Shown here piece after piece: positions 8,039 to 61,457 of a DNA stretch of 61,457 nucleotides. The position numbers and the translations under genes were made by a program. Within the stretch, counting starts at the first letter, position 1, and each line of letters opens with the position of its first letter. The stretch comes from Chlorokybus atmophyticus (Eukaryota > Plantae > Mesostigma and Chlorokybus algae), in NCBI GenBank assembly GCA_009103225.1, contig RHPI01002071.1, forward strand, positions 26,281 to 87,737, in the 5' to 3' direction. The notes beneath the pieces were generated by a model that worked only from the letters and a program-made list of their open reading frames with translations, was not told the DNA's origin and ran no database searches.

Positions 8039-8069
<31 letters not shown>

Positions 8070-11497: not shown

Positions 11498-11499
11498 GG

Positions 11500-11985: not shown

Positions 11986-12049
11986 GCGCGTAAAGCCAGC
12001 TATGTAAGGAAGGTGACATGGTGCCCAGTTTACCATGTTGTCTTTTAAC

Positions 12050-13050: not shown

Positions 13051-13429
13051 ATCCGCTCACCAATAGTGGCGGGTGCATCGATTGACACGATCTTTCTCTC
13101 GTGCACTCATACCGGAGAGCAGCTGGCCACTTTGAAGGAAGGATAGTGATAACTTGTCCAGCCATATGTCCTGCCTATATTGGTGGGTGCCAGCTCGGTG
13201 TCGTCGACTTCAACATCGACCGCGTGGACGTCCCTTGGGGGTGTGGTCACTGTGGGGCCGGTGGACTCAAGGGCAAGATTCTCCTCTACCGTTGAGGCGG
13301 CGGTAATGTTGATTTGGCGCCCTGAGGGTAACGCGGCAACAGCAAGCATGGCCGCCACGTCGGAGCTGTTGCAGGGCCGAGCTCGTGCCGAGCTGCCGTT
13401 GCATCGTTGGTACTGAGGTGAGGGTTGCG

Positions 13430-13810
13430 ACTAAGGCCATCGGCGTCTTGGTTGGTGAGGCCGGCGCGGTGGTCGATCCCAAAGTCATACTCCAGCAACA
13501 ACAGGGCCCAGCGGGCAAGTTTTTCTGTCGAATGTCGGTTGGTCATCAACCACTTGTGTGGCTGATGATCGGTGATCAACTGGACTTGTCGACCAAAGAG
13601 GAAAGGTCTGCATAAGGTATTAGCCCACACTGCAGCAAGGCACTCCCCCTCATAACTGATGTAGTTGGCCTTAGCGTTGTTGTTGCTTCTGCTAGCGTAC
13701 GACACCACCCTCTCCTTCTTGTTCTCATCATGCTACACCAGCACAGCCCCCATCCCAAGCTTGCTCTAGTTGGTGTGGAGGATGAAGGGCTTGTCGTAGT
13801 CAGGGCGTTG
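13430..13810 (-). pseudogene. RNase H (Ty3/Gypsy type)
   Basis: KPFILHTN*SKLGMGAVL; SYASRSNNNAKANYISYEGECLAAVWA; TDHQPHKWL; DADGLSR. Confidence 0.9.
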
Positions 13811-35167: not shown

Positions 35168-35691
35168 GTCGCCGCCCTCCACAACCGCACCCACGTCAGT
35201 CTGGTTGATACTTTGCACTTTATGCTCTTATGGATACCGGCGACGGGTTCCATATGAACATCCGTACGGATAACTGACTCTGAGCTTCACACATGACTGA
35301 CTCATACTACATGGGCCACAAATAGTTTGGTAAACATTATATGGACAATGCACAGTTCTGGCCACCAACTTTTGGCGTACAGATGATTACACTAGTCTCT
35401 AATGTAGATTGCTCGATTCATGTAATTCTGATGGAAAATGCGGTCGATTATCACCGCATGGTACAACTTGTACAAGTGGTACAAGTTTATGGTCCATTAG
35501 CACCCACCGAGCAAAGTAGGTATCATACGTACAGAGTTACATGACACAAGTGGAGAGTATTGCTTGGTGTGAGCATCGCAGACTCCATCCATGCACAACT
35601 CAAACAAATCTCAATTACGTGTAGTGAGAGTAAGTTTTAAGTGTTGATGTATACATTTATATATGCGCATGCATGTCACCTGCACGAGACA

Positions 35692-35797: not shown

Positions 35798-36745
35798 NNN
35801 NNNNNNNNNNNNNNNNNNNNNNNNNNNNNNNNNNNNNNNNNNNNNNNNNNNNNNNNNNNNNNNNNNNNNNNNNNNNNNNNNNNNNNNNNNNNNNNNNNNN
35901 NNNNNNNNNNNNNNNNNNNNNNNNNNNNNNNNNNNNNNNNNNNNNNNNNNNNNNNNNNNNNNNNNNNNNNNNNNNNNNNNNNNNNNNNNNNNNNNNNNNN
36001 NNNNNNNNNNNNNNNNNNNNNNNNNNNNNNNNNNNNNNNNNNNNNNNNNNNNNNNNNNNNNNNNNNNNNNNNNNNNNNNNNNNNNNNNNNNNNNNNNNNN
36101 NNNNNNNNNNNNNNNNNNNNNNNNNNNNNNNNNNNNNNNNNNNNNNNNNNNNNNNNNNNNNNNNNNNNNNNNNNNNNNNNNNNNNNNNNNNNNNNNNNNN
36201 NNNNNNNNNNNNNNNNNNNNNNNNNNNNNNNNNNNNNNNNNNNNNNNNNNNNNNNNNNNNNNNNNNNNNNNNNNNNNNNNNNNNNNNNNNNNNNNNNNNN
36301 NNNNNNNNNNNNNNNNNNNNNNNNNNNNNNNNNNNNNNNNNNNNNNNNNNNNNNNNNNNNNNNNNNNNNNNNNNNNNNNNNNNNNNNNNNNNNNNNNNNN
36401 NNNNNNNNNNNNNNNNNNNNNNNNNNNNNNNNNNNNNNNNNNNNNNNNNNNNNNNNNNNNNNNNNNNNNNNNNNNNNNNNNNNNNNNNNNNNNNNNNNNN
36501 NNNNNNNNNNNNNNNNNNNNNNNNNNNNNNNNNNNNNNNNNNNNNNNNNNNNNNNNNNNNNNNNNNNNNNNNNNNNNNNNNNNNNNNNNNNNNNNNNNNN
36601 NNNNNNNNNNNNNNNNNNNNNNNNNNNNNNNNNNNNNNNNNNNNNNNNNNNNNNNNNNNNNNNNNNNNNNNNNNNNNNNNNNNNNNNNNNNNNNNNNNNN
36701 NNNNNNNNNNNNNNNNNNNNNNNNNNNNNNNNNNNNNNNNNNNNA
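35798..36745. other. Assembly gap (948 N)
   Basis: Run of N. The X-filled ORFs here are artefacts. Confidence 1.
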
Positions 36746-37129
36746 GGGGGTAACAAATAGTTTACCTTATAATCGCACAAATTTCATCAATTTATTGAAG
36801 AATATGGGTTTACAATGCAAGTAGTGTATATATCACTTACGAAGTGTTTTTGCAGCATGAGTTTTGTACAGTAAGTAGTGTATATCAATGAAGCATGAGG
36901 TATATGTTACTTATGCAGTATAACCACGTATAACATGTATTATGTGTGCGTACAAACGTGTGTATGTTATAACTTCACATCTGTATCATATCAACTACAT
37001 CATTTCGACTGCACCATGTATGTAACAGATAATATGATATATTATTTAAGCAATCTATGCATAAAAGTTTTGCAATAATATGTGCATGAGACATGCATCA
37101 TATCACGTGCATTAAATGTAGCATTTGTT

Positions 37130-40100
37130 GTGGCGCATCATCAATAGCGGCATCGTCGGAAGCCACAAGTGGTGCTGCCTCGGCAGCCACAACCATTGCT
37201 GGGTCGACGCCATCAACAACACTATCGGCATCCACACTAACCACGACAGCAGGTGCAAGCACCCCTGGCACCATGCTATCTCCGGTGATGGAAAGCACCG
37301 ACGCCGCGGCAGCCATGGTCGTCGGGTTCGGGGGTGGTGAAGCCACCACTCCTGCCTTCATTGGAGCCACGGCAGCAGCCACAATTGCTGCCACCCCTCA
37401 CGGCTGCAACCTCGGTGACGACAACTGCTGCAGGTGTCACAACCATCACTTCAAGTGATGCTGCCGCACCCATGGCAATACTACCACCTGAGGATTGAGC
37501 AGCACCACCACCAGCGCTTGATGTCACTTAGCAAGTGCCACGCGGACCGCAAGCAGCCCGAGCCTGGGCGTCCGTTCTGCGCAACATCGAGCCCACCACC
37601 ATTGCGTACGGACCGGGGGGCAGCGCACCACACGTGTGGCACGCGATAATTGCATCTTGCCCCTACCACCTCCAGAGTACCACACGCTACCGGAACCCAC
37701 CCAGCAACAGTTGCAGGACGAAATTCTCGCCGGCATTGCTCCGAAGATGAGGGATCGGCTCTTCGGGGTCACCTACCGGCGACCCGCTGTGTTGGAGCTG
37801 GCCATACAACTGTTCTTGGCGTTGCACGCGAAGCTGCAGGGCGCACCCAGCCAATCGCGACAGCCAATGCCCGCGCAACAGATTGGCTTCGAGCCCTCAG
37901 TGCTGGACCTACTCAGACTTCAGCGCCGTAAAGAAGACCTCGTAGTGACCACGGCGGACATGCCGTTGGGCACTGACCTCGCGCTTCGAGGGCTCACCCA
38001 GGGAAGCCGGCAGGAGCGGTTTTCTGCCCTTGAACAAGCACATCGCTATTGAGTGGACCAAGCAGTACAAGTTGACGCACGCCGTGAAGCGTACGAGGCA
38101 GCATACGCCGTTTCAGTGCCGATCGCGGCGGCGACGGATGTCGCCAGCACCTCTACTACAATGACCGTGGTGCAGCCCACATCAACCGCAGTCGCTCCGC
38201 CAGGGCAAGCAATTGGTGCGGAGGGCTTTGGCTCAACAATTAAGGGGGGTAATCGCCTCGCTGCTGCCTTTACTGGTTGAAAACATGCCCAACGATCAAC
38301 GCGATTTAGGGTTGTGTGGTGTCCTCTTGTGGGGTGGTACCTCACCCCACAAGGGGACACCACACAACGAGGAGGAGCTGATATGGTGGGTGAGCAACAA
38401 CTCCGCACCGCACTCATATGACAAGCAGTTTTGCTGCATAAGCCTAAGGGCAGTGCATTAAGACAGATGATGGGGATGCGATGAGAAGGCAGCGCCACCC
38501 GAGCACGTCTCGTGACATGGCTCGTTGCCAACCACCCTGCCGTCCCCATGTTTGCCTTTAGCAATAGAGCACCATAGTTGGGGGCATTCGTTCACTCGCT
38601 GCGACAAGCCTTTGATAAGGCTGCCACCACGGCTCCGGATACGATGGAGGTAGTGCAAGAGGCAATGGTGCAGCTGCCAGGGGTAGAAGCAGCACGGTAA
38701 CGACGGCGCATCGCCATTGCTCATGAGCTACACGCACAGCAGACTGACCCCTAGCGCACCATACGTGCACGCGCCATGACCGTGCTCGATGTGGGTGTGG
38801 TACAAGGAAGGTGGGATGCCTACATGTCAGGGATCTTACGAGTCCCAACAATCGCTCACGACATGCGGCGACAGCTACTACGTGCAGTGTACCTGCAGCC
38901 CATGCCTCAATACCATCATTGGACTGACATGGGCACGGAGCCCACGGCCACGTGGGAAGGGACATTGGTCAGAGAAGCGGTTCATGCCATCCGATGGACG
39001 TACGCCGCAGAGCAAGCTGAACGCGACGCAGGCCCACAAACACCGGTGCCTTCAGGTTTTCCTCCACAGCCATTGAGTACACCCACGGGCATGATCCCAT
39101 CCTCGCAGAGACAGCGTCCACCTGTACCGCCACTACAACCGGCGCCGCAACACCCAGCACCATGGCCTCCCCGTGTCTACCAACCACCACAACAAGGTCG
39201 GTTCGGCAGAGGGAGAGGGCAAGAAGGGGGTCCTCTGGACCCAGCAGACAGAGGATCTTTGGCTGCACTGCGCTCAGCACCCCTAGCTGAGAGACATGAG
39301 GCCCGGATGGTGGCAGCCCGCACGGAGAGGCTGCGCATCAACGCCAACGCGGCCATGGTTGCCAACTAAAGCAAGCACGTGATCGTCAATGGACTGGCAC
39401 CCAAGTGTGTGATGACCATAATGAGAACAAGAAGGAGCGGGTGGTGTTATACGCCAGCCGAAAAAAAAAACAGCGCCGAGGCCAACTACAGCAGCTACGA
39501 GGGGGAGTGCCTCGCTGCAGTGTGGGCTATCTCTTTCTTCCGACTTTTCCTCTTCAATTGACAATTTTAATTAACCACCAATTATTAGCCACTTAAGTGG
39601 TTGATGATCAACCAACATCTGACCAGGGAACTTGCTCTCTGGGCCTTGCTGGTGCAAGAGCATGACTTCGAATTTGACCACCGCGCCGGCCTTGTAAACC
39701 AAGACGCCAATGGCCTCAGTAACCCTCACCTCAGCACCAACGATGCAACCGGAGCTCGGCATGAGCTCGGCCTTACAGCGGTCGCTCCCACCGTTGCACC
39801 CGTGTTTGCTGCTGCCGCGTTACGCTCAGGGCGCAAGACCAACACCACTGCCACATCAACGGCGGAGGAGATTCCTGCCCTTGAGTCTACCAGCCCCACA
39901 GTGACCACACCCCTAGGGGACGCCCACGCGGTCGACATTAAAGTCAAACAAAAAGCTGGCACCCACCGACACCAGGCAGGCCATATGGCTGGACAAGCCA
40001 TCAATCTCCTTCCTTTAAAGTGGCTAGCTTCCCTTTGGCATGAGTGCACGCGAGAGAGATTGTGTCAACCAACGCACCCGCCACTATCGGTGGGCAGACG

Positions 40101-41717
40101 ACAAGCTGTATTGCCGCTTTCATGACGAAGACAAGGAGGTGCCGACACCAGCCACACGCGCGGGCATCATCACTGCCCTCCACACTGAGCTTGGACACTT
40201 CGGTGTCAAGCGTACATCAAGCCTGGTAAGGGCACAATGTTGGTGGTATGGGTTGTCCAAGCAGGTGTAGGGTTTCGTTAGTCACTGCCAACAGTGTGAC
40301 ATGGTGCGCGCCAGCCTCAACACACGTAGCGCCACCTTGCACCCACTCCCCATCTCCGGTCTTTGCTATTGTTGGGGACTAGACATTGGGAGACTTGGCA
40401 CCCTCGGCACGTGGCAACTGGTACATCCTGGTCACGATCGAGCACTGCGTCAAATGGGTGGAGCTGGTGCCATTACCCGACAAGAGCAGCAGGGGGGTGT
40501 CTCAAGCCTTCCTCTCCCATGTCCTCAGCCGGTTCGGCAGCTGCGATGAGGTCAGCACCGACCAAGGCACTGAATTCAGAGGGGAGTTCGACACCCTTTT
40601 ACACAGATGCTACATCGATCACCGCCGTAACTCACGTGACCACCCCCAAGCCGGCGGTCTCGCCGAGCGGACAGTACAGACCATCAAGAAGGCACTCCGC
40701 AAGTACGTGCTGGAGTATGAAAAAGAACACCTGAGACGACCACCTTCCGTGGGTGGCTCTTGGATATCAATCATCAAAGCAGGTGGCTGCGCGCGAGTAC
40801 AGCCCATACTACCTGCTGTTTGGCCGTGCGCCATTGCTTCCCTTTCGTGCACAGCAGAAGGTAGATCGTGTGGTGAACAACCTTGACGATCCCAACTGAA
40901 TGCACCACAACATTACCACACGTGCTGCGCTGTTCGAACGCACCGTCCCTATGGCCTTCAACAACCTACGCATCGCGCAGCACCGTGACACTCTGCGCTA
41001 CGAGTGCGTGCGCAGCGGCTTTTACAAGGAGCGCCAACGGCGGTTTCAAGCAAGGGACTTTGCCTATCGCATGGCAGCCACCAAGGACACGCTTGACACC
41101 TCCGTGGGCCGCACCGTCTACAAGGTACTTAAGGTGTACCCCACAGGGGTGCTGGACCTCCTGGGTAAAAATAGAGAGAGGTTGTAAGACAACATGGTGA
41201 ACTGCGCGCCATGTCACCTCCCTGACGTAGCTGGCTTTGGGCGCATCCAGCACCCTCGCCCCGCCCGCAGTGAACGCTGCGGCAGCGCCGACGACGACGC
41301 ACTCATGATGCTCTGCAATGGCTGTAACAAGGGCCTGCATTGCTACTGTCTGGAGCCCCCATTGGACGCAATACCCATGGAGGAGGAGTATTGGTGCGAC
41401 AATTGCCGCGCCAATGGCCCTTCTCACTTGCGTTAGCAGCTGAGCCCTGGAGCTGAAACCTCCTCAGAAGCTCAAGGGGGGTGGCTTGTTGACTGTGTGT
41501 CCTACAGCACATCATGTACATTAAGGAGGACACCGACTCCACATGTCCGTATAACTCAGTAGCAGCGGAGCAGCTCCACAAAGCCTTTGTCGCCAGAGCT
41601 GGGTTATCTTTTGCTTTTGCGACACGTTGCAGTATGTTGCAGTAGCATGGCTAGCAAGCATGTCTTTCCCTGCAGCTGTCCGAGACAGCGTGACCGTCGA
41701 CTCTCCTCGACCCGACA
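37130..41717 (+). mobile_element. Ty3/Gypsy copy 3 (same lineage), internally deleted from the protease N-terminus to mid-RNase H; retains integrase, PHD, PPT and repeat A
   Basis: 37130-39414 is colinear with 5565-9895. At ~39414 it jumps into the RNase H (ENKKERVVLYASR). Integrase at 40100-40900 (STDQGTEFRGEFD, GLAERTVQTIKKAL). PHD CNGCNKGLHCYC...WCDNC at 41270-41406. PPT at 41474-41486. Repeat A at 41487-41717. Confidence 0.9.
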
Positions 41718-42685
41718 ATGCTTGCTATCTTTAAAGCACACCATTGCTGCAAAACAATAATAGCTTGGAAGGGTGAGAGGGGTAGGGTCACCAAGCTTAA
41801 GTACGGTGGCTGTCATTGTTCAGCAACAACGGTGCTAGGTACATATCAAGCGTATGTAGCTTTCGTAGCTAAGTGCGAGCAAACCGGCACATTCCTCAAG
41901 TATTTGTAGGCAACGCACCTTTCGTTGAACCACAACATGCTACCAAGGGCCCCACAGTACGTTATCTCACAACCACGTGAAGTATACAAATGCAACTTCA
42001 AACTGGAAGTCGGCAAGGGTTGTGAAGGGCGTCCTCCTCCACCAACACCAACTCAGCTATACAAGCTATACAACTACCCAAAAGCCAACGGCTAAGGGGC
42101 AACTCACGTGCATAGCATTAATACCAGTGAAGGCGGGGAAGGGAGGGGTCATATAAGAAGGGTGCACCACAACGCGAATCCTGCGCATCCTCAGCATGTC
42201 CGCATGTACATACGCAAAGGTGGCTAGTAGCACACTCTGTGCATAGCGCGCTTGGTTCCGCCCATGCATCCTTATGTTCACAACTACTGGCAAAGCCTCC
42301 CCTTCAATCACTTCCTCCGGCAACAATTGCATGTTGCAACCTCATCAGCTCTCTACTTAAGCTCCAGCAGGCACTTACAAGCCGGACTCTGCAAAGCTAC
42401 AACCATAGAGAGTTTAAGCGTTGTTTACCAAGCAATGATGTTGGCCGGCCAAGGAGAAGGGATTGTCATGTGCTCGTTTGCTTGCACGCCCGTTGAGGCA
42501 GTTGCTGCCAAAACAACCATAAGGATGCTGCACTGTAAGCAAGCTGAAGCTCCCGCGCCTCAACATGCAGGCAATGAGGACCAATCATATTGTGTTAGCA
42601 CAGTGCGTCCGCGTGCGTCTGTGCATGTGCGCCCATATGCATGTACTTGCGTGCATGCTTGTGTGCGTGCAAAGACTTGCGGGGA

Positions 42686-42784: not shown

Positions 42785-43857
42785 GGTGTTCTTGTTTGAG
42801 CAGCAATGCCAGCACCTTGCGGCACGGACAGTCCTGTATGTATACAATGGCCTGGATGGTAAGGAAGGAGGAGGTGAGAATCTGTACACACAAGTATGCA
42901 TACTCACCTGCAGTTGCATGTGAATACGCGTTCGAGCAGGCATAGCTTAAACAAGCACAAGTGTGCGTCATGCATCTGCCTGAGCATGCCATTGTTTGTG
43001 TGTATACACGCGAGCACACGTGTGTGTTCTCGCCACCAGCTGCAGGTGTTGTGGGTGCAAGTGCATGTGGGTGTTCGTGGGTGCACTTGTTGGTGCGCAT
43101 ATGGTTGTGTGTACTCCTGTTTGCAATCCATGTACTCGTCACCAACACCCCCACCTCGCTTTTCACACTCACCCACAACATCGCGCATGCGCGCACATAC
43201 ATACACCCACCCACGGGGCTGTTCACGTACGCCTGTTTGCCAAAGACCAACACTTCACCACCATGGAGTCTTGGACATTCATGCACATGTGATCGCAACC
43301 CGTCCCCACCTCCTAAACATCAACGTGGCCTGACTAACAATGCCCAACCGCCTTGGAGGAGGGGAGGTGGTCAACCATGTGGTGGTGAGGGGGGTGGAGG
43401 AGGAGTTGTAAGGTATAGTAGCCTTAAGCTTGTGCTCGCCTCCCCCCTGGCATGCTTTTCCAGCTGCTGCCGACGACACTCGGCGGCGGCGATGTGACTG
43501 CTCACACGCTCTACTCTAGCTTCACTTCATGCCGTTGTTTAGCCCTGGCCAAGAGAACGGCTGACAATCACCTGAGCTTACCGTCAGATGAGCATAGAGT
43601 TGGTCCGCTGCTGCTTACCACACGGCGGACAGACCATACTCTTCCTGTTTGTTTGGGAAGCAGGCCTTGGTTTTGCGGGCGGCGGCGGCAGGCGTGTTGG
43701 GTCATAGTCGTGGTTGTCGGGGTAGGCGACGGGGAGGGCATTGGTAAGCTGGTGATGGCGAGAGCAAAGGCGGCATTGTTATCCTGGTGGTCCGCTAGAT
43801 AGTGTCAGTGTGCATGTTGCTATGGAGTATCCAATGCACAATCACATTATCCGTGTG

Positions 43858-45562
43858 TGTTCAGGATAGCACATGCGCATAGCACGCACGCATGTATACC
43901 GTCGTGTGCGCAGTTGCACACAAGTGCGCAATGTAAGCACGCAGCTGCATGGAGACAAAGCTTAAGGAGGTCTGCTGTTCTGCCGCAGATGGCACCACCG
44001 TTATGGCCACAGTGTGCCAGTACTTCTACTTCAACAGGGAAGGCAAGTTGCGTGATGTTGGATGCGGGGTTTGGTCCATGTCTTGGTTCCACAAGCTACA
44101 GGCAATTGGTTTTGCTGACTTGCTGACCAGTCATGTATATTGTGATATACAACACCACAAGTTGCTGCACCCGCTCATTGTTGTATAGGCACCTTGGTTG
44201 TTTGCGGTTACCTAAGAATGTACAAGTGTGTGACGTTGCTGGTGTAATCGTAATGTCGCAAATCTGCTAACGCACTCTTGTGAGTGCCATTGATTGCGAT
44301 GCTACACAGTTGTTGCTTTGTATGTGTTCTGAGTGAGCCGTTGCCTATGACAGAGTCAAAGGCTACATTCATCACGGAGGGCGTTGTTGGAGACACCAGC
44401 TTCAAGTACATTCCAGACATGCGTTTGTTCAGGATAGCACATGCGCATAGCACGCACGCATGTATACCGTCGTGTGCGCAGTTGCACACAAGTGCGCAAT
44501 GTAAGCACGCAGCTGCATGGAGACAAAGCTTAAGGAGGTCTGCTGTTCTGCCGCAGATGGCACCACCGTTATGGCCACAGTGTGCCAGTACTTCTACTTC
44601 AACAGGGAAGGCAAGTTGCGTGATGTTGGATGCGGGGTTTGGTCCATGTCTTGGTTCCACAAGCTACAGGCAATTGGTTTTGCTGACTTGCTGACCAGTC
44701 ATGTATATTGTGATATACAACACCACAAGTTGCTGCACCCGCTCATTGTTGTATAGGCACCTTGGTTGTTTGCGGTTACCTAAGAATGTACAAGTGTGTG
44801 ACGTTGCTGGTGTAATCGTAATGTCGCAAATCTGCTAACGCACTCTTGTGAGTGCCATTGATTGCGATGCTACACAGTTGTTGCTTTGTATGTGTTCTGA
44901 GTGAGCCGTTGCCTATGACAGAGTCAAAGGCTACATTCATCACGGAGGGCGTTGTTGGAGACACCAGCTTCAAGTACATTCCAGACATGCGTTTGTTCAG
45001 GATAGCACATGCGCATAGCACGCACGCATGTATACCGTCGTGTGCGCAGTTGCACACAAGTGCGCAATGTAAGCACGCAGCTGCATGGAGACAAAGCTTA
45101 AGGAGGTCTGCTGTTCTGCCGCAGATGGCACCACCGTTATGGCCACAGTGTGCCAGTACTTCTACTTCAACAGGGAAGGCAAGTTGCGTGATGTTGGATG
45201 CGGGGTTTGGTCCATGTCTTGGTTCCACAAGCTACAGGCAATTGGTTTTGCTGACTTGCTGACCAGTCATGTATATTGTGATATACAACACCACAAGTTG
45301 CTGCACCCGCTCATTGTTGTATAGGCACCTTGGTTGTTTGCGGTTACCTAAGAATGTACAAGTGTGTGACGTTGCTGGTGTAATCGTAATGTCGCAAATC
45401 TGCTAACGCACTCTTGTGAGTGCCATTGATTGCGATGCTACACAGTTGTTGCTTTGTATGTGTTCTGAGTGAGCCGTTGCCTATGACAGAGTCAAAGGCT
45501 ACATTCATCACGGAGGGCGTTGTTGGAGACACCAGCTTCAAGTACATTCCAGACATGCGTTT
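43858..45562 (+). repeat. Tandem triplication, unit 568 bp, apparently identical copies
   Basis: Identical ORFs recur at 43949/44517/45085 and 44208/44776. TGTTCAGGATAGC occurs at 43858, 44426 and 44994. The span is three units plus 1 bp. Confidence 0.97.
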
Positions 45563-49031: not shown

Positions 49032-52000
49032 CTACACTGCCGCAGCCGCCAGCACAGCGTCCGCTTCCGCCGTTGGTGCCGCCATCTGGACTGGGCCCCA
49101 GCCTGGTACCGCCGCTACGATTGCCGCTCCCCGTTCTAGGATGGTGATGCCCTGGGCACGCTGCAACGCGCATGACACGCGCTGCCGGTATAGAGCCAAG
49201 TAGCCCGACAGCCTGCTCAACGGCAAGTCACGTGTAGCCAGTGCCCTCCTAGCGCATGTGTCAATGACGTCGTGAAAACTCTGGCCCAGGGTGCCGTGCG
49301 TCTCGGCGGCGAGGGGATGAAATGTGTCGGCGGCGGGGTGATCGTGGTATTTCCGCCGCTTCGCCTGCTCCGCCGCCATCGCCGCGCCTCCCGGTTGCTC
49401 GCCGCATGCGGTGATCGTGACATCTAAGAGCATGCGCGTATCTCGACCGGGTTCGAAGGCCACCAAATCCACTCGCCTCCCTCTCGTCTCACCCGGCAGT
49501 ACCGGCATAAACCCGCTCTGCTCCCTGCTGACCGAAAACCCTGCGTCACGCATCACACCATATACCTCGTCGCGCAACGCGTCATGCGTCGCTGTGCGGC
49601 ACCTCCCAAAAGGGCAGCGGAGTAGGTGCGTGCCCTCGGCCGTGAGCGGCCACCCGCACAAGCAGTGCTCGACGTTGACCAACAGCGGGTGCGGTAGTCC
49701 CAGCAGCGTCCTAAGCGCGGTCCGGAAGATGTCGGCGGAAATGCGTAGTGCCGGGAAAAGTGGCAAGGCCGACAGCCACGCGCCAGCACCGACACCCGAA
49801 GCCGATTGACGCCGCGCTCTGTCGGTGGTAGCCGCGGTGGCATTGAATCGGTCGACCAATGCGGCGTCGACCATGGCGGAGATGTCCTCCTGCAGCTTCC
49901 GCGCTTCCACGCGCGCCAACGCCGACAAGGGCGGAAGTGTGCGGCGTGCGCCGATGGTGGCAGCAGCTGCGTGGCAGCTCTCAAATCGCGTTAAAACAAA
50001 ACGCCGACGTCGGCGCTGTCGATGGCGTCGACGAAATGCGGTGATGGAGGGGCGGTGAAACGGCGGCGCAGTTGGCATGCCGCTGCGGCCCATCCGCCGA
50101 CGTAAGCCGCGGGTGCATGCAGGCAGCTGCAGCGCAGCCCTAAACCGCCCGATCGAATGGGCAGCAAGATCTGGGCCGTCACGCGCTCTGCACGGTGCGA
50201 CGCCGCCGGCCACGCGGGCGACTGCACCAGGGCCCGGACCACACCCTGAAGCGCGCCGTCAAAAGATGCCAAAGCCGACCGGAAAGTCGGTGTGGGGGCG
50301 ACCGTACGTGTGAGGTAGCCCGGGCGTGCCGCCACGCACTTAGTCAGCAGGAGCAACGCCACCTGAGTGTCCGGCAGGGCCTGAATGGCCGGCAGATCGT
50401 CCATAAAAGCCTGCAAGGACTTCTGACAATGCGCTTCCGCAAAAGATACCGTACCAACCGGCACACCCAGGGCTATGAGGCCATCATTGCAACGCGCGAC
50501 GCTGGCCTCTACCTCGAGCAAGCGCAGGGCGGCCGCGTCAGCGCTATAAGCGGCCGATTTGTGGAGGGCGACGTGGAGGCCCACACACGCCATCTCCGCT
50601 GTGAGCGCGCGTGATGCTGTTGTCACCTCGTCGGGGGGGCCGACCAGGAAAGTGTCATCAGCGAACGTAACAGCACGTGCACAGCGGTAATTCGGCAACA
50701 CACGTGCCACCACGCGGGTGTGCACCAAAGCATACAGAAAACCCGCCAATGGCCTTGTCTAATTCCCGTCGATGATGGGATGGCAATGACGTCCGCGCCA
50801 CGCCGGTACCACAGGGTGGATGGGGCGCCATACCACAGTCTGACAAACGGAATGTAACCCGCGAAGGGAGAATCTCGGAGCTCCGCGAACATTACTGCGC
50901 GATCAACGGTGTTGAAAGCATTGGAGATATCCAGCCGCAAGATAACATTGTCTGGATGCGCCTCGGACCAGACGCGTAGGCCGTGCGCCACGAGCTCAGC
51001 CCCAGACCTTGTGGCCACGGCGTACTGCCATGGCTCAAAGAAATCGGCCAACGCCGGGCGGTCTTGAGCCAGCAAGGAGCGTGCCACCAGGCGCTGCAGG
51101 ACATCTCCCACTGCGATCGGACGGACACCCGCAGCAGCCGAAGCCGGGTCTTTGCGAAGGGCTGATAAAGATGACGTGGCTAAAGCGGAAGCCACCAACG
51201 CTGGGACCAAACCGGTCACAAGCAGCTGACACATGTTATGAAACTGACTCCATGTCGACGTGTGCGTGGCGCCCGCCAGCAGGATGTCTCGCATGTGTTC
51301 GTACGTCCACCCGGACGGATCAGGAGCAGTGAGACGGCGCGCCGTGAGCAGGCTGTCCCTCAAAGTAGTGGCGGACAACTCAAGCACTTCGGTCGGAATA
51401 AAATCAGGCACCCAAGCAGGCACAGGGTCAGCTGGGACCGGATGGAGACGGCACAAAGCGGCCACTGTTGCGTCGTCGGCCGGTGCCGGCGAGGATGGAG
51501 TCAGTGCCGCGGCAGCTCTGCTCAGCTGGCCTGCGTGGGCGAGTGCGATGGCACGGCGAACATTCCAGTCAGATGGGCGACGACTGGCCGCCGCTTCAGT
51601 CGACATGCGGCGTGTTGCTGCTGCAGCCGCAGCCGCGGTACGATCGGCCCAAAGTCCCTCCCAGTCGCCTGATTCAAACCGCCGGCAACGGTCGCGGACG
51701 GTACCTTTAACGCGTCGCTGGTCCTGATCGTGGCACGCCGTCAGTAGAAGGCGTGGCAAAAGCAGCCACAAATCCCAGCCGTCCGTTTCGGCTGGAGACG
51801 CTAGGATGCGCGCTAAAGCCAGCGCCGCGCAGCGTGACACATCGATGCGCGCGCCATAAGGCACATGCAACAAGCTTCGGGCGCCGTCAGGTAGGAGGTC
51901 CGTGGCTAAGTCGCGGCTACGTAGCCACTGCCAGGCCGTAGCCGAGGGCGGAACAGGCGGCATGTGGCGTGCTGAGGCAGCAGGAGCGGCCGCCTGCGCG

Positions 52001-52998
52001 CGTGCGGTGGAATCACGGCGGGCTTGGCAAGCTCGGGTGTGGGCGGCCAATCCTGCCGCAGTGGCGCACACGCGGCTGCACAAAACGCAGCGGCCACCAC
52101 CTCGATCGGGAGAGGGTGCCGGCGGGTCGCCGGATCCGGAAGGTGACGCGTCCGGGCGCGCCCTGGGGCCTCAGCCGCCTCGACGCGCAGTAGGCACAGC
52201 CGCAGGAGTCGATGACGAAGCCGGCGCAGCGGCGGCCGCCGGCGGCCCGGCGGGTGGTGGTGGTGCGGCAGCAGGGACCGCGGGACATGCTTGGGTGGCC
52301 CGAGCTGCCTCGTCGCAGGCCGCACGATCGGGTCGGGGATCCAACGTGTGGCGGGCTAGCGGCGCCGCCGCTGCCTGGACGTCGTCGGCCGCTGGTTGGA
52401 CGGGTGGCGGCGCCGGTGGCGCTGGCTCCGGAGCCTGCGGCTCCGTCGTCGTCTCAGTGGTTGCAGTAGTGGGCCCTGGCGGTGTCGTCGTGGAGGCCGG
52501 AGCAGTCGCCGTCGCCGCCTCCACCGTCGCCAGGGGAGCTGGTTGCTGGGGTGCTGCTGTTGTTGCCGTGACGGGTGCTGCCAGGGGCGGTGGCTGCTGA
52601 TCTTCATCAGACGAGGAGGAGCTGTAGGAAGGGCCGGACGCCATGCCAAGGTCGCTGCTGCATTGTGGAGAGCCCGGGCATGGGCGGACGGAGCGGCGTG
52701 CCTGTCGAGGGCGGGCACGCTTGCGTGGGCGGCTGGGCGAGTCGCTATCGTCCATTGGCGTGGGGCGGTCACTGCTACCTGCACCTGGCCTAACAGCCCT
52801 GTACAACCTCCGCTCTAAGAGCTCACCTTGTGAAGCCGGCTCCCGCTGTCCTCCCCCACGCCGTCCACCACCCCTATCCCTCCCGTGCTCATGCACTGCT
52901 CGCCCTGGGGACGAAGCTGCACCACTCCCAGCTGCGCCTGGCCCTCCTCCCCCACCTGGCCCAGGCGGTTGCGCGCTGCGCCGCCGCATGCCGGCCAT
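49032..52998 (-). mobile_element. CRE-clade non-LTR retrotransposon (single ORF: Pro/Ala-rich N-terminus, Zn finger, RT, CCHC, restriction-like endonuclease), with one in-frame stop and two frameshifts
   Basis: ORFs 52171-52998 and 50623-52083 are in the same frame, separated by one TGA. Zn finger CVLCSRVCATAAGLAAHTRAC. RT motifs VRPIAVGDVLQRL, QYAVATRSGAE, LDISNAFN, GIRQG, TFADD. CLCG...THLLRC...THD. Endonuclease RRVDLV...LLDVTIT...AKRRKY...PLAAETHGTLG. Frameshifts near 50750 and 50010. Confidence 0.92.
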
Positions 52999-54048: not shown

Positions 54049-56143
54049 CTATTGCTCGAGGGTTTTCTTAAGGGCCCCAACATCTTCCTCCCAGCCTTCA
54101 GATTTGTTAGCCTGTGCCTTTAGAATGTCTAGCTGCACTTGCTCAATAGCTTGCTCGGCGCGATTCCTGCTTTGCATTGCGGCAAACTCACTACGCAGAA
54201 CTTGTTGCCTTTGATCTGCTTCTTCGACAGGCGGTAATTTTGACTTTGCACCCTATCAACGTGCACCACAAGATCAACAACAGGTTGGCAAGAGCATCCT
54301 CGCACACCCATGACAACATCAACTACAAACCTACACACATGCATCATGCCCATTGCCTCACCCGGCTGCTTTGTGTAATTTGACGCATGATACACAAGTG
54401 CATTGAGGTCGGTGCAGTTACGAGCATTGCTGCTTCGTCTTCAAGGACAAATGCACCTGGTAAGTCTTGTGCCCACTCCGAGGACGTTTGAACACCAAGC
54501 AAGTTGGCTGCAATCATTGCAACAAACGCTGCTGCTGATACTTTCTGCAGCAGGTAGTCCGCACCCACAGCGAAACATGTAGAGTCCTCAATTGCATCAA
54601 CGGCTGTGGCATAATCTTTGCCACTGAAGCCGCCATTCTGCGCAGGCGTATAACCCAACTTGACTTCGGTTTGAATGGGAATGAGAAGAGTCTGCACAGC
54701 TGCGCAGCAACAACGTTCATCAGAAAACTTCCTGCTCTTGTCTCAATCTCGGAATGCTTAGATGCCCATAGCCTTCGTGCTTTAATAACACTATAAATCA
54801 TCGCCACATGCCACATGCAATCCCTTCAACCCTTCTGCAGTTGTTGGTACTCACCTCGCTGCCATGACTTATAGCGCTTAAATCTGATGACGGCATTTTA
54901 GAGTACATGTGCATTTCCGCCACATGCCTGCGGACGAACACTGCCGTTGATTAAACATGTCTGAACCTGCGTGTAAAAACTGAAAGCTATTCAAGATAAC
55001 AAATGAGCTATCTGTCGTAAACTTACATTGTATACGAACGTCCAATCGTAATCGCTGAGAATACCACTTGTCCCGCTCATTTGCAATTGCCTGGCAACGT
55101 ATTCTCGCGCATCCCCTTCCGCAAAATCGCCATCCGTATATGTGGTGGACTAGCACGCCTACTCCTGCACATACACCATGCACATGAGTCAGCAGCTAGA
55201 CCAGTCAAGGTGCATGACATCAATTTCAATATGTCATCAACCAAAACACAATTGTGGTCAAGTCACAAGTGTCAGAATCCGAATCACATTATACATTCCC
55301 TTCAATAACACACTTGAATGGATTCACAGCAAACACTTACTTGTACTTGTCTAATTGCGCTCAACACAACAAACACATGCTATTGCCATGCTGCCACAAT
55401 CCCCACCGGAGCGTGCACGCCTTGCAACAACTTACTTCTCTTGATGAACTTGAGAATGCGTATTCCGAGGATGCGAGTATGACATGGCTTGGTCCCTCTT
55501 GCTTGGTGATCCGCACAAAGAACCTAAGAAGGTGGTTAAGCTCCTCATGGTAGTAACGAGACCACGCCATGATGACGTTTGCCTCGACAATAATCAAAAC
55601 AGGGATGTCGCCAGCAGTCGCCAACGTGCCCTCTCTCCGTGCCTTCGTCCATTCATCCAGTACAACATTGTATACGTCCAGCACCGCGTGCAGTGAGATG
55701 GGCTCTGCTTCCATTTGCTGCAGTGCAGTCTCGCTGTTGAAGAAAAATATGTCATAGCCTCTAGCTTGCTGAGGCCAATCAACGGACCACTTTGGGCGAG
55801 ACATAAAGCCTCGAACACGCGCGTCACCAGAGTCCAGGGCTTTCTAGTGGCCAGCCTCGCGGTGGTTCTTTTGGCAGCTAAAGACCAATGGCTGGCACAG
55901 GCAGTGCAAGCAATGCTTCTGCCATCTGTTGGGGTGTGGACAAGCATGTTGCTCGGCCATCAATGTAACAGCGGATACTCTGTGAACCCGTTGGCGCCTT
56001 CATGAACGCCTTGAGGAGCATGGTTTTACCACACGAGCGCGGGCCGTTGATAATAGAAATGCCTTCAGGGTGGTTGCTGCAAAGCATGTGCAACTGGTCC
56101 AGCTCATGTTGGCGGTTCAACAATTCTTCTCGTGTGACGGGTC
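54049..56143 (-). CDS. P-loop ATPase (AAA_16/'archaeal ATPase'-like) with C-terminal coiled coil, multi-exon; the 5' end probably extends to ~56630
   Basis: LNRQHELDQL...IINGPRSCGKTMLL (Walker A); PVLIIVEANVIMAW (Walker B position); LLRFFVRITKQEGPSHVILASSEYAF; NLLGVQTSSEWAQDLP...VTAPTSMHLCIMR; last exon SKLPPVEEADQ...KKTLEQ* with TAG at 54049-54051. Confidence 0.7.
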
Positions 56144-57195: not shown

Positions 57196-59411
57196 CTATT
57201 GTGGCAATTCGCATCTGAAATCGTAAACACCTTCGCAAACCTCTACGTATGGCTGGCAATATACTCTACGGTCGTTAACTGGACAGCAAGTACCATCCAT
57301 GTAGGCATCACAACCCTGTCCCACAAGATGACAGCCTCCAGGACCGCTGGGTGGAGTCGTCGCTGGGTCAGGTGGTGGGGGCGGAGATATGCACGACGTC
57401 AGCTTGCACGCTGCCTCACAAGCTTGCTTCAAACCGCACACCACTTTCAAACCCAAGGGTATTTCTGGAGCAGCCACACCGGCAAACCACGCTGCTATGT
57501 CCACTGCAGAACTGACTGCACACACTGGATCAAACAGTATTTTCATGGTCTGACACAACCTGCTACAAGAATCTGACGGGTTCGAGCAGCCTGGTAGATT
57601 GTCAATGAGAAAGTCATGGGCCATGGGTATGAAAATGTCCGACGGCATGGCGCTACTTATTGTCTGGCCACCAACAGACATGGAGAGCATAGGAATAGCC
57701 CCGGTAAAGTCCCACAGCACGCCTGTGATATTGGCTGTGGGCCGAGGTCGAGGGATGTTGTATTGAAGAGACAGCAGTTGAGTAGGATTACCACGGAACT
57801 TGAAGTCTGGTTGGTCCCAGTAGTAGACGTCACTGTTGATGGGCACGGATGACTGAAGGCTACAAAAGTTGGGGAAGGAAATGGAGGCAAACGGGTCCGT
57901 GCCCATAGGGCCCACACGCGTATCATTAGTATTGGACACCGGGTAGTAGCTCATCTGGGGCGGGCTATACGGGTTGCTATAGGTGCAGTTGCGGACATCA
58001 GCGCATGCATCCCAGCATTCCGCACCGCAATCAACTCCAGTCTCATTGCCATTCTGCACGCCATCGTAACACGTTGGCGCAGCCGGAGTTGCCGCGGAGG
58101 AAGGAGCTGGCGCAACAAGCTGAGAGGGTGGGCTCTGCGAAGGTTTGGGGGGAGGTGGGTTTGAAGAGCGGAGTGGCTGTGGAGGGGGAGAGCGACGCAC
58201 AGGAGGGGAGTAAGGAGGTGGGGGTTGAACAGGTTTAGGCGGAGGAGATGCAAGTGGCAGTGGTGAGGGAAGTGGCCGCATGGGAGGCGGGGGACGAAAG
58301 GGTGATGGCGCCGGAGTTGCCGCGGAGGAAGGAGCTGGCGCAACAAACCGAGGGGGTGGGCTCTGCGAAGGTTTGGGAGGAGGTGGGGGTGAAGCGCGGA
58401 GTGGCTGTGGAGGGGGCGAGCGACGCACAAGAGGAGGGGAGTGGGGAGGTGGGGGTTGAACAGGTTGTGGCGGAGGAGAACCAGGTGGCAGTGGCGAGGG
58501 AGGTGGCCGCATGAGAGGCGGGGGTAGAAGAGGACGAGCAGTGGCCGTGGGAGGAGGACGCGCTGACTGAGGAGGAGGTGGATGGACAGTGGCTTTCGCA
58601 GGAGGAGGACGCGCTGACTGAGGAGGAGGTGGTCGGGCAGCAGCCTTCGTAGGGGGAGGCGTTGATTGAGGAAGGGGTGAATAAGCAGTGGCCATTGCGG
58701 GAGGAGGATGTGATGACGGAGGTGGTGAATGTTGCAAGGGAGGCGATCGCAGCGGCGGAGAGCGTGGCACTGCAGCGGGAGGAGGCGCTTGCACTGGTGC
58801 TGAGACTGAACTCAGTGTGCGGGAGGCCCTGCAATTGGTTGCACATCTATGAGTAAGCAAGAACGCCTCAACACGCTTGGGACTCAATGTCCATCGCAAT
58901 CTGACTTTGCAAGATCCTAGGTGACAATAGAAACATACGGGTTCACCTGACAACCAGCATACAATGCTCAGCAATGATATGGTGGAACACACAAAGTCAC
59001 AGAGGCTGTGTATACTTGTGTTAGCTCTCAATGCATCTGCTGCACCACAGTGCTAGTGGCAAAGATACATAGAACTTCGGTTGATGCTAGTAGACAGTGT
59101 TCCCTAACTTACTTCTGCTACGTGTGAGTGAGCAGCAGGGAAGAGTCGACTGCTAAGTGGTTAAGGCCAATCACGCTACCGCTGAAATGCAGTATAGTGA
59201 CTAGGGTCGGGTTGTATCCTGTATGAGAGAAGTGGGAACACTATCCTATAGGATGATTGAAACCAAAGGACTGAACTCACCTTGAAGCTCTTGTCTGGCC
59301 GGTGGTCCTGACGCTTGTGCGAGCTTCAGTAGCTGTGTATGGCGTGAGCAGAAGCAGGGCAAGAATCATGCCAGTGACATGCCGCTGCGACGACATACTA
59401 CTCAGAGCCAT
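57196..59411 (-). CDS. Secreted proline-rich (HRGP/extensin-like) protein with Cys-rich modules; join(59411-59281, 58828-57196), ~587 aa
   Basis: Exon 1 encodes MALSSMSSQRHVTGMILALLLLTPYTATEA (signal peptide) and ends at GTGAG. The CAG acceptor at 58829 is phase-compatible with the long ORF. SPPP/PPP repeats; CYDGVQNGNETGVDCGAEC; Cys-rich C-terminus. Confidence 0.8.
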
Positions 59412-59529
59412 GGCGCCGGCAGCAGCGACAGCTATAGCACAAGCTCTTGGTTTAGCAGAGATTTGCATTGGGTTATAAATGCGCGCACTCCAGAGCAGCT
59501 TGATACGGCAGCGCGGCTTGAGAGCCAGA

Positions 59530-59900
59530 GCCGCGCCCTTCAAAACAATCCTGACGCCAGATTTCCAAGCGGCGCATTTCCAACTGCGTCGCAAGCCGCG
59601 CCCTTTATGAAAATCCTGACGCCAGATGTCCAAATGGCGCATTGCCAACTGCGCCGCAAGTTGGCGACAGGAATACCTGGTCTTCCGCGGCATCATTACT
59701 GACCCTAATCCGCGGCCCAATCTCCTCTCCAGGACCATAAACCGCGCAAGCGGCGCATATCCAACTGCGCCGCAAGCCGCGCCCCTCACATGCATTCTGA
59801 CGCCAAATGTCCAAGCGGCGCATTTTTAACTGCGCCGCAAGTAGGCGACAGATATATCTGTTGTTCACCGCGGCAGCACTTACCCTAACCCGCGACCCAA
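59530..59900. repeat. Higher-order repeat: 181-bp unit x2, each with two 65-bp subunits containing the palindrome GCGGCGCA-N8-TGCGCCGC
   Basis: Cores CAAGCGGCGCAtwtccaacTGCGCCGCAAG at 59566, 59631, 59747 and 59812 (spacings 65, 116, 65). Confidence 0.9.
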
Positions 59901-60180
59901 AATCTGCTCAAGGATATTCAGCGCCGAGTACCCACCTGTCAGCAGAAGTCGCGGGGCTGTCCAATGTCTTCATGTCCCCGCAGGGCCGCGGCCTAACAGC
60001 ATCCGCCGTTTGGGAATCTTTGTAGGCAAGCCTAGCTAGCGTCGGCGCCTCTGTCCGCAAGTGGACTCGCTGCAGCACTCTTGTCCTATCGAGACACGAA
60101 TTAAATCGATACCTGGCAACTTGGCCCCCAGCAAAGCATTATCACGTCGCAAGTGTCGTCAATCGCAATTCGAATGGTAT

Positions 60181-60684
60181 TCACAGCGCGAGCATCGGGA
60201 ACGGGATGCCACTCCTGGGGGCGGCGGCCCCGCCCCGCGTGTCGGGAACCGGTATGGCCTCCACGCCAGTGATCGTCGCGCTCAGCACGCGCACGTCGCG
60301 AGACGTGGGCGAGCGCGTGAGCACCGCGGTGACCGTCTGCACCGTGACGGGAGCGGCCACCGTCGCCACCACATTGTACACGATCAGAAGACTCGGCTTG
60401 GTCTTAATCAAGCTCTTTACTACCAGCGGCAACACGGCCGTGTGCGGCCGATCGTTGCGGACTCTCCGCGTGATGGCGTCGATACTTATCGCCAGTTCGG
60501 CCGCGGTGTACGGCAGCGCGGGAGACGTGGAGTCCCCCAGCGCCGCCGCCGCCGCCGACGCGTACGCGGCATCGGCAACAGCCCTCGCCGTCGCGACGTC
60601 GTCAAATTGTTCCCGCGAGCGGCCGGCGCGAAAGTAGTAGCAAGCCAGGATGATCATCAACAGGGCGACGCATAGGAACTGCAT
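60181..60684 (-). CDS. Intronless 167-aa protein with N-terminal transmembrane helix; giant-virus-like hypothetical membrane protein
   Basis: MQFLCVALLMIILACYYFRAGRSREQF: an N-terminal hydrophobic helix, then a basic stretch and an E-x-F motif, a pattern frequent in Nucleocytoviricota membrane proteins (recollection, not a search result). Confidence 0.6.
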   Translation of the reverse strand: MQFLCVALLMIILACYYFRAGRSREQFDDVATARAVADAAYASAAAAALGDSTSPALPYTAAELAISIDAITRRVRNDRPHTAVLPLVVKSLIKTKPSLLIVYNVVATVAAPVTVQTVTAVLTRSPTSRDVRVLSATITGVEAIPVPDTRGGAAAPRSGIPFPMLAL

Positions 60685-60713
60685 GCCGCCGCGTGTAATG
60701 CCCTGCGAAATTT

Positions 60714-61079
60714 ATGTCGTCAGCACGCATGGCCTCCTCACAGGACTGCGTTCTGTATTACAGCACCAGGTGCGCTCATTCCGCGCGCTTCACGCGCGAG
60801 CTCAATGACGTGCCGAGCATCGCGGCTCGTTTCAGGCGCGTGGACGTTGACACCTCGGCCTTCCCCGCGCAAGTGACGACTGTACCCACCGCGTGATTCG
60901 AGGGCGGGCGCTACGCGCTGCAAGGGGCGGCGCTGTTCCAGTGGCTGGAACAGCAGAAGCGGCGGACGATCGGGGGGTACGAGGTCAGCACCGAGCTGTT
61001 CGATGCCGGCTTGGCGTTCGCCTACATGGACGACGGCAGCGGCCTCGAGCAGCGGGCTCGCTCGTTCTGCACCATTTGA
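60714..61079 (+). pseudogene. Thioredoxin-fold protein of giant-virus type, interrupted by an in-frame TGA at 60894-60896
   Basis: CVLYYSTRCAHSARF...RRVDVD...VTTVPTA*FEGGRYALQGAALFQWLEQQ...AFAYMDD...SFCTI*. The CxxS site and cis-Pro VP motif are present, and the frame stays open and protein-like past the stop. Confidence 0.65.
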
Positions 61080-61081
61080 GA

Positions 61082-61457
61082 TCACTCGCCGGCGGGTTTC
61101 ACGGACGCCCACCTGTGCGACACCGACTTGGACAACGAAGCACGGAGCTGCAGGGCGTTGGGATCGGTATTGGCCGCGTGAGCGGCCGACGCGCGCGCGA
61201 TCTCCTTGTCCCCCAGCGCGCGCTCCAGCGCCTCGACCCTAGCTCGGATGCCCTCGACTTCGGCGCTAGCGCTGTGCGCCGTTTCGTGCACGCCGCGCAG
61301 CAGGTGCAGCAGGTCGCTGTACGCGCTCCAAAAGCACGCCACGAGCGAGTCCATCGCCTGCACGACCGGGTTCATTGTCATGCCATCTACCCTCGCATGC
61401 CAGTCCTTCTCGAGCATGCCTACACCCAGCCCCACGCCCGGGCTACCAGCATGAAGA
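61082..61457 (-). CDS. Intronless hypothetical protein with coiled coil, 5'-partial (frame open to the window edge)
   Basis: EVEGIRARVEALERALGDKEIARA heptads. Its stop lies 2 bp from the stop of the convergent thioredoxin-like gene. Confidence 0.55.
   Translation of the reverse strand, partial: LHAGSPGVGLGVGMLEKDWHARVDGMTMNPVVQAMDSLVACFWSAYSDLLHLLRGVHETAHSASAEVEGIRARVEALERALGDKEIARASAAHAANTDPNALQLRASLSKSVSHRWASVKPAGE

What the first reader, a model, noticed from the sequence alone, without database searches (positions are those of the whole stretch)
60130..61457. Probable left edge of an endogenous giant-virus (Nucleocytoviricota) element
Seen: after ~60 kb of intron-rich host genes and decayed TEs, the sequence becomes visibly GC/CpG-rich. 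It holds three intronless ORFs packed 29 bp (divergent) and 2 bp (convergent) apart: a TM + 'REQF' protein, an LYYSxxCxHS...VPT thioredoxin-like protein and a coiled-coil ORF running off the window. Established: giant endogenous viral elements occur in green algal and streptophyte genomes, and small thioredoxin-fold and N-terminal-TM proteins are typical NCLDV gene content. Inference: this is the boundary of such an insertion, with the junction between ~59900 and 60180.
Basis: partly seen in the sequence, partly recalled or inferred. Interest (0 to 1): 0.82.

Follow-up and report, generated by a model that had tools for sequence, protein, structure and literature searches.

The report
Decaying giant-virus fragment in algal genome
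Three tightly packed, intron-free genes, one a broken member of a giant-virus thioredoxin-like family, sit between a spliced host gene and a host retrotransposon end; they are likely a decaying piece of giant-virus DNA integrated in what is likely an algal genome, which is a known phenomenon.

Summary
Giant-virus origin is supported; 'left edge of a giant element' is not shown. ORF B (60714-61079) belongs to a thioredoxin-like family found in giant-virus contigs: 31 IMG/VR loci, with an NCLDV capsid gene in 5 of 5 contigs tested. An in-frame TGA at codon 61 breaks it. ORF A (167 aa) faces it head-to-head. Nine related loci have a 167-169-aa membrane gene in that position with the same predicted fold, resembling PBCV-1 capsid protein P6, but sequence similarity is not significant. 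All three ORFs have GC3 0.83-0.87 against 0.48-0.64 in host frames. Correction: ORF C does not run off the window as a viral gene. At 61376 a host LTR begins, 78-81% identical to two other copies in the window. Only about 1.2 kb of viral DNA is visible, with no hallmark gene and no demonstrated terminal repeat. The left junction lies between about 59480 and 60180. No genome or spanning read was available. Verdict: a new example of a known kind.

The parts
57196..59411 (-). Flanking host gene (not viral): predicted two-exon, secreted, proline-rich and cysteine-rich protein. Exon 1 runs from ATG 59411 (or 59468, 59396, 59369) to a donor at 59281; exon 2 runs from an acceptor at 58828 (or 58846, 58900) to the stop at 57196.
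   Evidence: Open spliced frame with a consensus GT-AG intron and a TATA-like run at about 59473-59479; GC3 0.48; run X1 contigs match 58711-58875 and 59024-59227 with no differences at depth 2-3. Splicing is predicted, not observed.
59529..59914 (.). Degenerate tandem array (65-bp and 181-bp periods) holding four hairpin units GCGGCGCA-N8-TGCGCCGC; host or viral origin unresolved
   Evidence: 4 matches, all here, against 0.05 expected by chance; no array found in IMG/VR, only 2 single matches
59480..60180 (.). Interval that holds the left host-virus junction; compositional change point near 60140
   Evidence: Left bound from the host gene start; change point from a Markov score trained on the element itself, so partly circular; no Pfam family in any of six frames
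60181..60684 (-). ORF A, 167 aa, open: N-terminal membrane anchor plus a predicted cystatin-like helix-and-sheet domain; likely a capsid-membrane minor protein of the PBCV-1 P6 (A203R) type
   Evidence: same position and length as the membrane gene in 9 of 33 viral loci; sequence comparison not significant
60714..61079 (+). ORF B, giant-virus thioredoxin-like family (YSxxCxHS...VP...G...FxWL), 121 codons, broken by an in-frame TGA at codon 61 (60894-60896)
   Evidence: 47 hits at E<=1e-3, 43 of them family members; 63.2 bits against a profile built from 21 viral-contig genes, best shuffle 3.1 (500 made, 434 reported); the part after the TGA also matches (8.3 bits)
61082..61375 (-). ORF C, viral-type composition (GC3 0.87), 97 aa from an ATG that abuts the LTR; helical; no homolog found; the true N-terminus may lie beyond the LTR
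   Evidence: only sub-threshold coiled-coil-type hits; one weak viral hit was spurious
61376..61457 (+). First 82 nt of a host LTR (TG start) of the Gypsy-like family also present at 2964 and 11497
   Evidence: 81% and 78% identical to window 2964-3039 and 11421-11497; all three begin at the same TG; summed contig depth 74-111 against 0-4 for most other bins (one short chance piece 15), with several different flanks at 61375/61376 in runs X1 and X2

Best explanation
This is a 1.2-kb run of giant-virus-type genes lying between a host gene and a host LTR, likely a decaying piece of a Nucleocytoviricota genome that integrated into a likely algal chromosome and was then broken by a stop codon and a retrotransposon insertion. 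SHOWN: ORF B is a member of a giant-virus family and carries an in-frame TGA; an LTR starts at 61376; codon composition differs from the host's. INFERRED: the DNA entered the nucleus during infection and was fixed. Its left end is a break or deletion junction inside the viral core block, not a true viral terminus. The LTR jumped in afterwards, next to ORF C's ATG. In the donor virus, ORF A probably tied the capsid to the inner membrane as PBCV-1 P6 is proposed to, and ORF B was a one-cysteine (CxxS) thioredoxin-fold protein. Here ORF B is cut just after the conserved cis-proline motif and is probably dead, and the genes are probably silent passengers. Whether viral DNA resumes beyond the LTR is open (my estimate is about even).
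For: ORF B: 47 hits among 1.84 billion representatives, 43 family members and 4 repeat artefacts. 31 IMG/VR loci, 11 labelled GVMAG. Among 33 loci, 17 have an Rpb3/11-like gene, 9 have DUF5759 and DUF5764, 8 PCNA and 6 VLTF3 nearby. NCLDV capsid in 5 of 5 contigs tested and 0 of 14 control genomes. No NCBIfam or PHROG match for ORF A or B. ORF A: same orientation and length as the membrane gene 24 bp from the family gene in 9 of 33 loci; same order and position of predicted elements; the same top PDB fold, 4lzi, Z 7.4 and 9.8; two shared BFVD hits in both top tens, A0A0P0YN57 and A0A0P0YMK8. The relative's model matches PBCV-1 capsid chain 8h2i_bQ, Z 7.1, rmsd 4.1, 96 aligned. Host DNA lies on both sides. 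Decay: no homolog of 40 has a stop, Cys or Arg at the TGA column, and most have V/I/L/A/M. The gene that follows the membrane gene in relatives (DUF5759) is not detected left of ORF A, which fits a break inside the core block.
Against: No read or contig spans either junction or covers the viral ORFs, so integration is not independently confirmed. ORF A has no significant sequence match to anything. Its model is poor (pLDDT 47), Z scores under 8 are common, and the PBCV-1 chain is not in its own top 50. The nine syntenic loci are close kin (four compared: 83-90% identical), so they count as about one lineage; 17 of 33 loci have a different neighbour. ORF C has no homolog. CpG is enriched rather than eroded and only one lesion is seen, so decay is slight. 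The TGA could be an assembly error. The best homologs are unnamed and their contigs were not seen.
Confidence: 0.62

Rival explanations
1. This is the true left terminus of a large, mostly intact endogenous giant virus. The hairpin array at 59529-59914 is part of a terminal repeat, and the LTR is only a late passenger inside the element.
For: Two of three frames are open, GC3 is high and CpG is not eroded, which suggests recent arrival. The punuivirus GEVE has terminal inverted repeats holding a satellite array (10.1101/2024.09.03.611062, passages). The array here is unique in the window, and CpG rises from about 59500.
Against: The membrane-gene/thioredoxin pair lies in the conserved core in relatives, next to DUF5759, DUF5764, PCNA and VLTF3. 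Punuivirus terminal repeats are 10.8-14.8 kb, while under 700 bp separate the host gene from ORF A. ORF B is broken. No hallmark gene is in the window.
Confidence: 0.2
2. The viral DNA is a free virus or contaminant joined to the host scaffold by mis-assembly at a repeat.
For: No contig spans the junctions. The segment ends at a high-copy LTR, where mis-joins occur, and the scaffold has a 948-N gap.
Against: Two false joins within 1.9 kb would be needed. The LTR starts exactly at its terminal TG against viral sequence, as an insertion would. A premature stop in a conserved gene is unlikely in a replicating virus.
Confidence: 0.08
3. The three genes are cargo of a host DNA transposon or other mobile element that captured giant-virus genes, with the hairpin array as its subterminal repeat.
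For: The array has four hairpin units. Unchecked notes on other pieces of this genome describe Plavaka-type transposons carrying a virus-type methyltransferase.
Against: No transposase or Pfam family was found in 59480-60180. The genes keep viral spacing and head-to-head order. The two runs give no sign of high copy number for 60181-61375, although absence there is weak evidence.
Confidence: 0.07
4. The genes are of bacterial, phage or ordinary eukaryotic origin.
For: The ORF B family profile weakly matches cellular thioredoxin folds (AhpF, E 0.001). ORFs A and C have no significant homolog.
Against: ORF B scores far higher against giant-virus genes. It has no NCBIfam, PHROG or Pfam match. No close relative was found in GTDB genomes (that search finds close relatives only).
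Confidence: 0.03

Closest known systems
Giant endogenous viral elements and their relics in green algae (Chlamydomonas reinhardtii punuivirus, 10.1101/2024.09.03.611062; PMC9693826; passages)
   Same: Nucleocytoviricota genes inside a repeat-rich host chromosome; high GC; relics as small as 5.3 kb are reported.
   Different: Those elements are defined by hallmark genes, terminal inverted repeats and 6-bp target-site duplications. None is shown here. Only 1.2 kb is visible and it is more GC-rich than its flanks.
Eroded or fragmented giant-virus insertions colonised by host mobile elements (Acanthamoeba PMC12210455, Euglena PMC12455990; passages)
   Same: Viral gene clusters flanked and invaded by host transposons, with sudden GC shifts. 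This is the closest match in how it looks.
   Different: Different host and likely a different viral lineage; methylation and silencing were measured there and not here.
GEVEs in streptophytes and a glaucophyte (Klebsormidium nitens, Physcomitrium patens, Cyanophora; PMC12344493, passages)
   Same: Clusters of giant-virus genes in plant-lineage genomes.
   Different: The host here is not identified, so a new host record cannot be claimed.
PBCV-1 minor capsid protein P6 (gene a203r, 216 aa; PMC6344570, text parts 2-3 and supplement rows)
   Same: Predicted transmembrane helix at residues 2-20 and a central sheet wrapped round a helix. The syntenic relative of ORF A matches a PBCV-1 capsid chain over residues 64-181 and, weakly, a 216-aa chlorovirus protein (E 0.094).
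   Different: That chain bQ is P6 is my inference from residue range and fold. ORF A is 167 aa with four predicted strands, and it has no direct significant match.
Unnamed giant-virus thioredoxin-like family (loci L001-L033, L043, L044)
   Same: Ser17, Cys20, Val57-Pro58, Gly71, Phe75 and Trp77 are kept.
   Different: Best identity is only 39-40%. ORF B lacks the C-terminal tail of many members and has a premature stop; its place in the tree is unresolved.

Membership tests
Giant endogenous viral element (GEVE) | Genes of Nucleocytoviricota origin | tested here: met
   ORF B. ORF A suggestive only; ORF C unassigned.
Giant endogenous viral element (GEVE) | Embedded in host chromosomal DNA | tested here: met
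   In the assembly: predicted spliced host gene on the left and host LTR on the right. Not confirmed by reads.
Giant endogenous viral element (GEVE) | Hallmark genes (MCP, PolB, A32, VLTF3, RNA polymerase) | tested here: inconclusive
   799 ORFs from 33 viral loci hit only ORF B in the window. That set holds VLTF3, PCNA and Rpb3/11; I did not check that it holds MCP, PolB or A32. DNA beyond the window is not available.
Giant endogenous viral element (GEVE) | Length of tens to hundreds of kb | not testable with these tools
   1.2 kb is visible before the LTR; no genome is held.
Giant endogenous viral element (GEVE) | Terminal inverted repeats and target-site duplication (intact, punuivirus-type elements) | tested here: inconclusive
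   Only one end is in view; the repeat array has unknown origin.
Giant endogenous viral element (GEVE) | Read depth like the host's and reads across the junctions | tested here: inconclusive
   Runs X1 and X2 cover single-copy DNA only patchily, at depth 2-3; nothing spans the junctions.
Giant endogenous viral element (GEVE) | Methylation and transcriptional silencing | not testable with these tools
   No RNA holder listed; no methylation data.
Giant-virus thioredoxin-like family | SxxC...VP...G...FxW pattern and profile match | tested here: met
   63.2 bits against a best shuffle of 3.1; conserved columns.
Canonical thioredoxin | CxxC active site and a Pfam thioredoxin match | tested here: not met
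   ORF B has CxxS (25 of 40 homologs have S and 15 have C at that column). No Pfam hit for ORF B.
Selenoprotein (TGA read as Sec) | TGA aligned to a catalytic Cys in homologs | tested here: not met
   0 of 40 homologs have Cys at that column, which is a hydrophobic strand position. SECIS was not searched.
PBCV-1 P6-like minor capsid protein | N-terminal transmembrane helix | tested here: met
   Hydropathy 1.88 over residues 1-19; prediction only.
PBCV-1 P6-like minor capsid protein | Central sheet wrapped round a helix, with detectable homology | tested here: inconclusive
   Cystatin-like predicted fold, Z 7.4 at pLDDT 47. The link to PBCV-1 is only through the syntenic relative. hhalign to that relative gave E 0.094.

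The most novel reading that the evidence does not exclude
The segment is the exposed end of a large, recently integrated giant virus from an unsampled GC-rich lineage (best relatives only 39-40% identical), in an algal lineage with no known virus, and the four-hairpin array is its terminal structure. ORF A would also show that a PBCV-1 P6-type capsid-membrane protein is kept head-to-head with the thioredoxin-like gene across distant algal viruses.
Probability: 0.15. Interest if true: 0.55.

Novelty: new member of a known kind. Interest (0 to 1): 0.3.

Why it matters
Endogenous giant-virus DNA in algae and protists is well documented, so this is one more record. Its value is as a pointer. It marks a scaffold worth screening for hallmark genes, which would place a donor virus with no close relative in the collections searched and tie it to a host. 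The LTR touching ORF C could also date the insertion if both LTRs can be compared. The suggested link between an unnamed viral membrane gene and capsid protein P6 is a small, testable annotation gain.

Tried and rejected
No whole genome is held, so nothing beyond 61457 could be read. Word-indexed protein searches with ORF B and ORF A found nothing; a profile search returned 4 known members. The ESM Atlas gave no usable hit for ORF A or its syntenic relative; ORF B was not searched there. Pfam, NCBIfam and PHROG gave no hit for ORF B, and for ORF A only one sub-threshold Pfam hit. Locus scans with P0009, P0005 and alignment A3 found nothing in IMG/VR. The single metagenome scan returned 2 distant loci of the Rpb3/11 type. 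ORF B found no close relative in GTDB. ORF A against the syntenic gene was not significant by BLAST or hhalign, and it matched 0 of 12 viral records searched; 15 of the 27 requested were not held. ORF C matched 1 of 12 at E 0.03, in an off-frame repeat, and this was rejected. Two trees of the ORF B family left its position open, so I do not assign a viral order. The hairpin motif gave 2 single chance-type matches in IMG/VR. No RNA holder was listed. A 158-nt exact match in run X2 at 59706-59863 has unrelated letters on both sides and was not interpreted. Selenocysteine read-through was rejected. Paper searches for streptophyte-alga elements with three exact terms and for the conserved gene block returned 0 papers; the A203R search listing showed 0 occurrences of that term in the 10 papers listed. 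Supplements of the bioRxiv punuivirus preprint were not seen and may list related genes.

Full report
OBSERVATION. The last 1.3 kb of the window differs from the rest. 60135-61375 has GC 0.656 and 14.5 CpG per 100 nt, against 0.516 and 5.4 for 1-60000, and no same-sized window to the left reaches that CpG density. GC alone is not unique, because a non-LTR retroelement at 49-53 kb is as GC-rich. The three frames and their 29-bp and 2-bp gaps are as described. Length is weak evidence: 294 of 1000 resamples hold an ORF as long as ORF A. Third-position GC of 0.83-0.87, against 0.48-0.64 in five host and transposon frames, marks them as real genes with a foreign codon style.

TWO CORRECTIONS. First, ORF B is broken by an in-frame TGA at codon 61. 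The sequence after it still matches the family profile. The column is mostly V, I, L, A or M in 40 homologs and never Cys, so this is a lesion or an assembly error, not selenocysteine. Second, ORF C does not run off the window as a viral gene. 61376-61457 is 81% and 78% identical to window 2964-3039 and 11421-11497, and all three begin at the same TG. The copy at 2964 precedes a gag-like frame (named from recall), and protease, integrase and PHD domains occur in this element family. In two public runs the stretch has summed depth 74-111 against 0-4 for most other bins, with several different flanks at 61375/61376. It is the start of a host LTR.

ORF B IS A GIANT-VIRUS GENE. An exhaustive search gave 47 hits at E<=1e-3, best 39% identity. 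A motif test passed 42; one more is a member by eye; four are repeat artefacts. None of the 20 clusters first looked up has an informative name. A pattern scan of IMG/VR gave 31 loci, 11 labelled GVMAG, plus 2 earlier ones. Of these 33, 17 have an Rpb3/11-like gene nearby, 9 DUF5759 and DUF5764, 8 PCNA and 6 VLTF3. Five of five contigs tested encode the NCLDV capsid, against 0 of 14 control genomes. A profile from 21 viral-contig genes scores ORF B at 63.2 bits; the best shuffle scored 3.1. The loci were found with an alignment led by ORF B, so this score is partly circular; the neighbours are the independent evidence. The fold is thioredoxin-like with CxxS, not CxxC. Trees do not place it.

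ORF A IS LIKELY A CAPSID-MEMBRANE PROTEIN. It has no significant sequence match. In 9 of 33 viral loci, though, the gene head-to-head with the family gene, 24 bp away, is a 167-169-aa membrane protein. These nine are close kin and count as about one lineage. The two models have the same order: anchor, helix at 61-78 or 62-74, then four strands. Both have the same top PDB match, a cystatin fold (Z 7.4 and 9.8), and share two viral hits in their top tens. The relative's model also matches PBCV-1 capsid chain 8h2i_bQ (Z 7.1, rmsd 4.1, 96 aligned, residues 64-181). PBCV-1 P6 has a predicted helix at 2-20 and a central sheet round a helix between residues 60 and 177 (PMC6344570), so I infer that chain is P6. 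Against this: ORF A's model has pLDDT 47, such Z scores are common, and the PBCV-1 chain is absent from its own top 50. I put the P6 link at about even odds. ORF C is unassigned.

BOUNDARIES. On the left, a host-type gene with a predicted GT-AG intron starts at 59411-59468 on the minus strand, so the junction lies right of about 59480. Between it and ORF A is a four-hairpin array unique in the window and of unknown origin, then about 270 bp with no Pfam match. The compositional change point is near 60140. In relatives the membrane gene is followed by DUF5759; none is detected here, which fits a break inside the core block more than a true viral end. On the right, the LTR abuts ORF C's ATG. Of 799 ORFs from the 33 viral loci, 26 hit the window, all at ORF B. 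No genome is held, and no contig spans either junction.

HOST. A eukaryote, from the split GPI-phospholipase-D-like gene (domains; name from recall) and the retroelements. 'Alga' is inference from gene style and from unchecked notes on this genome; I did not test it.

MECHANISM. Best reading (0.62): giant-virus DNA was captured in the nucleus, cut down or joined by a break inside the core block, and then hit by a stop codon and an LTR insertion. Shown: family membership of ORF B, the stop, the LTR, the composition. Inferred: integration, order of events, silence, and the role of ORF A. Rivals: true terminus of a large element (0.20), mis-assembly (0.08), transposon cargo (0.07), cellular origin (0.03).

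KNOWN SYSTEMS. I read passages of 10.1101/2024.09.03.611062, PMC9693826, PMC12344493, PMC12455990, PMC12210455 and PMC9617893, and passages, text parts 2-3 and supplement rows of PMC6344570. It looks like the eroded, transposon-invaded insertions of Acanthamoeba and Euglena and the relics in Chlamydomonas. It cannot be filed as a GEVE in the strict sense, because hallmark genes, size and termini are untested.

VERDICT. A real feature and a new member of a known kind; interest 0.3.

Noticed in passing
window 49032-52170 (-): Non-LTR retroelement with reverse-transcriptase-like and restriction-endonuclease-like frames (named by eye; no Pfam hit), split over three frames; GC 0.63-0.72 and CpG o/e 0.9-1.15, the only other long CpG-rich block.
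   Followed up: partly
window about 2964-13732 and 37500-41719: Nested Gypsy-like LTR elements with protease, integrase and a PHD finger; the same LTR family ends the window at 61376.
   Followed up: partly
window about 30900-35230 (-): Split gene with a zinc-dependent phospholipase domain followed by FG-GAP repeats, the layout of GPI-specific phospholipase D (name from recall).
   Followed up: no
window 57196-59468 (-): Predicted two-exon secreted protein with long proline-rich repeats and cysteine-rich ends, no Pfam match; a cell-wall glycoprotein type by appearance.
   Followed up: partly
window 16948-18055 and 23676-24826: AT-rich block (GC about 0.40-0.47 over 17-25 kb) bounded by a 1.1-kb direct repeat at 75% identity, with internal palindromes at 18893, 20913 and 24153; possibly an old transposon.
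   Followed up: no
window 43855-45562: Three nearly identical 568-bp tandem copies (99.8-99.9%), a recent duplication or an assembly artefact.
   Followed up: no
window about 35800-36750: Assembly gap next to a GA/CG microsatellite; the window holds 948 N in all.
   Followed up: no
window about 55361-56123 (-): Exon-like frames of a P-loop ATPase-type gene (Walker A motif seen by eye; no Pfam hit for the frames scanned).
   Followed up: no
L005:5467-5970 (-) and relatives: Unnamed 167-aa viral membrane protein predicted to have a cystatin-like domain matching a PBCV-1 capsid chain; possibly an unrecognised P6 homolog.
   Followed up: partly
P0006: A database 'protein' that appears to be a translated tandem tRNA-like repeat; one of four spurious hits dropped from the ORF B family.
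   Followed up: no
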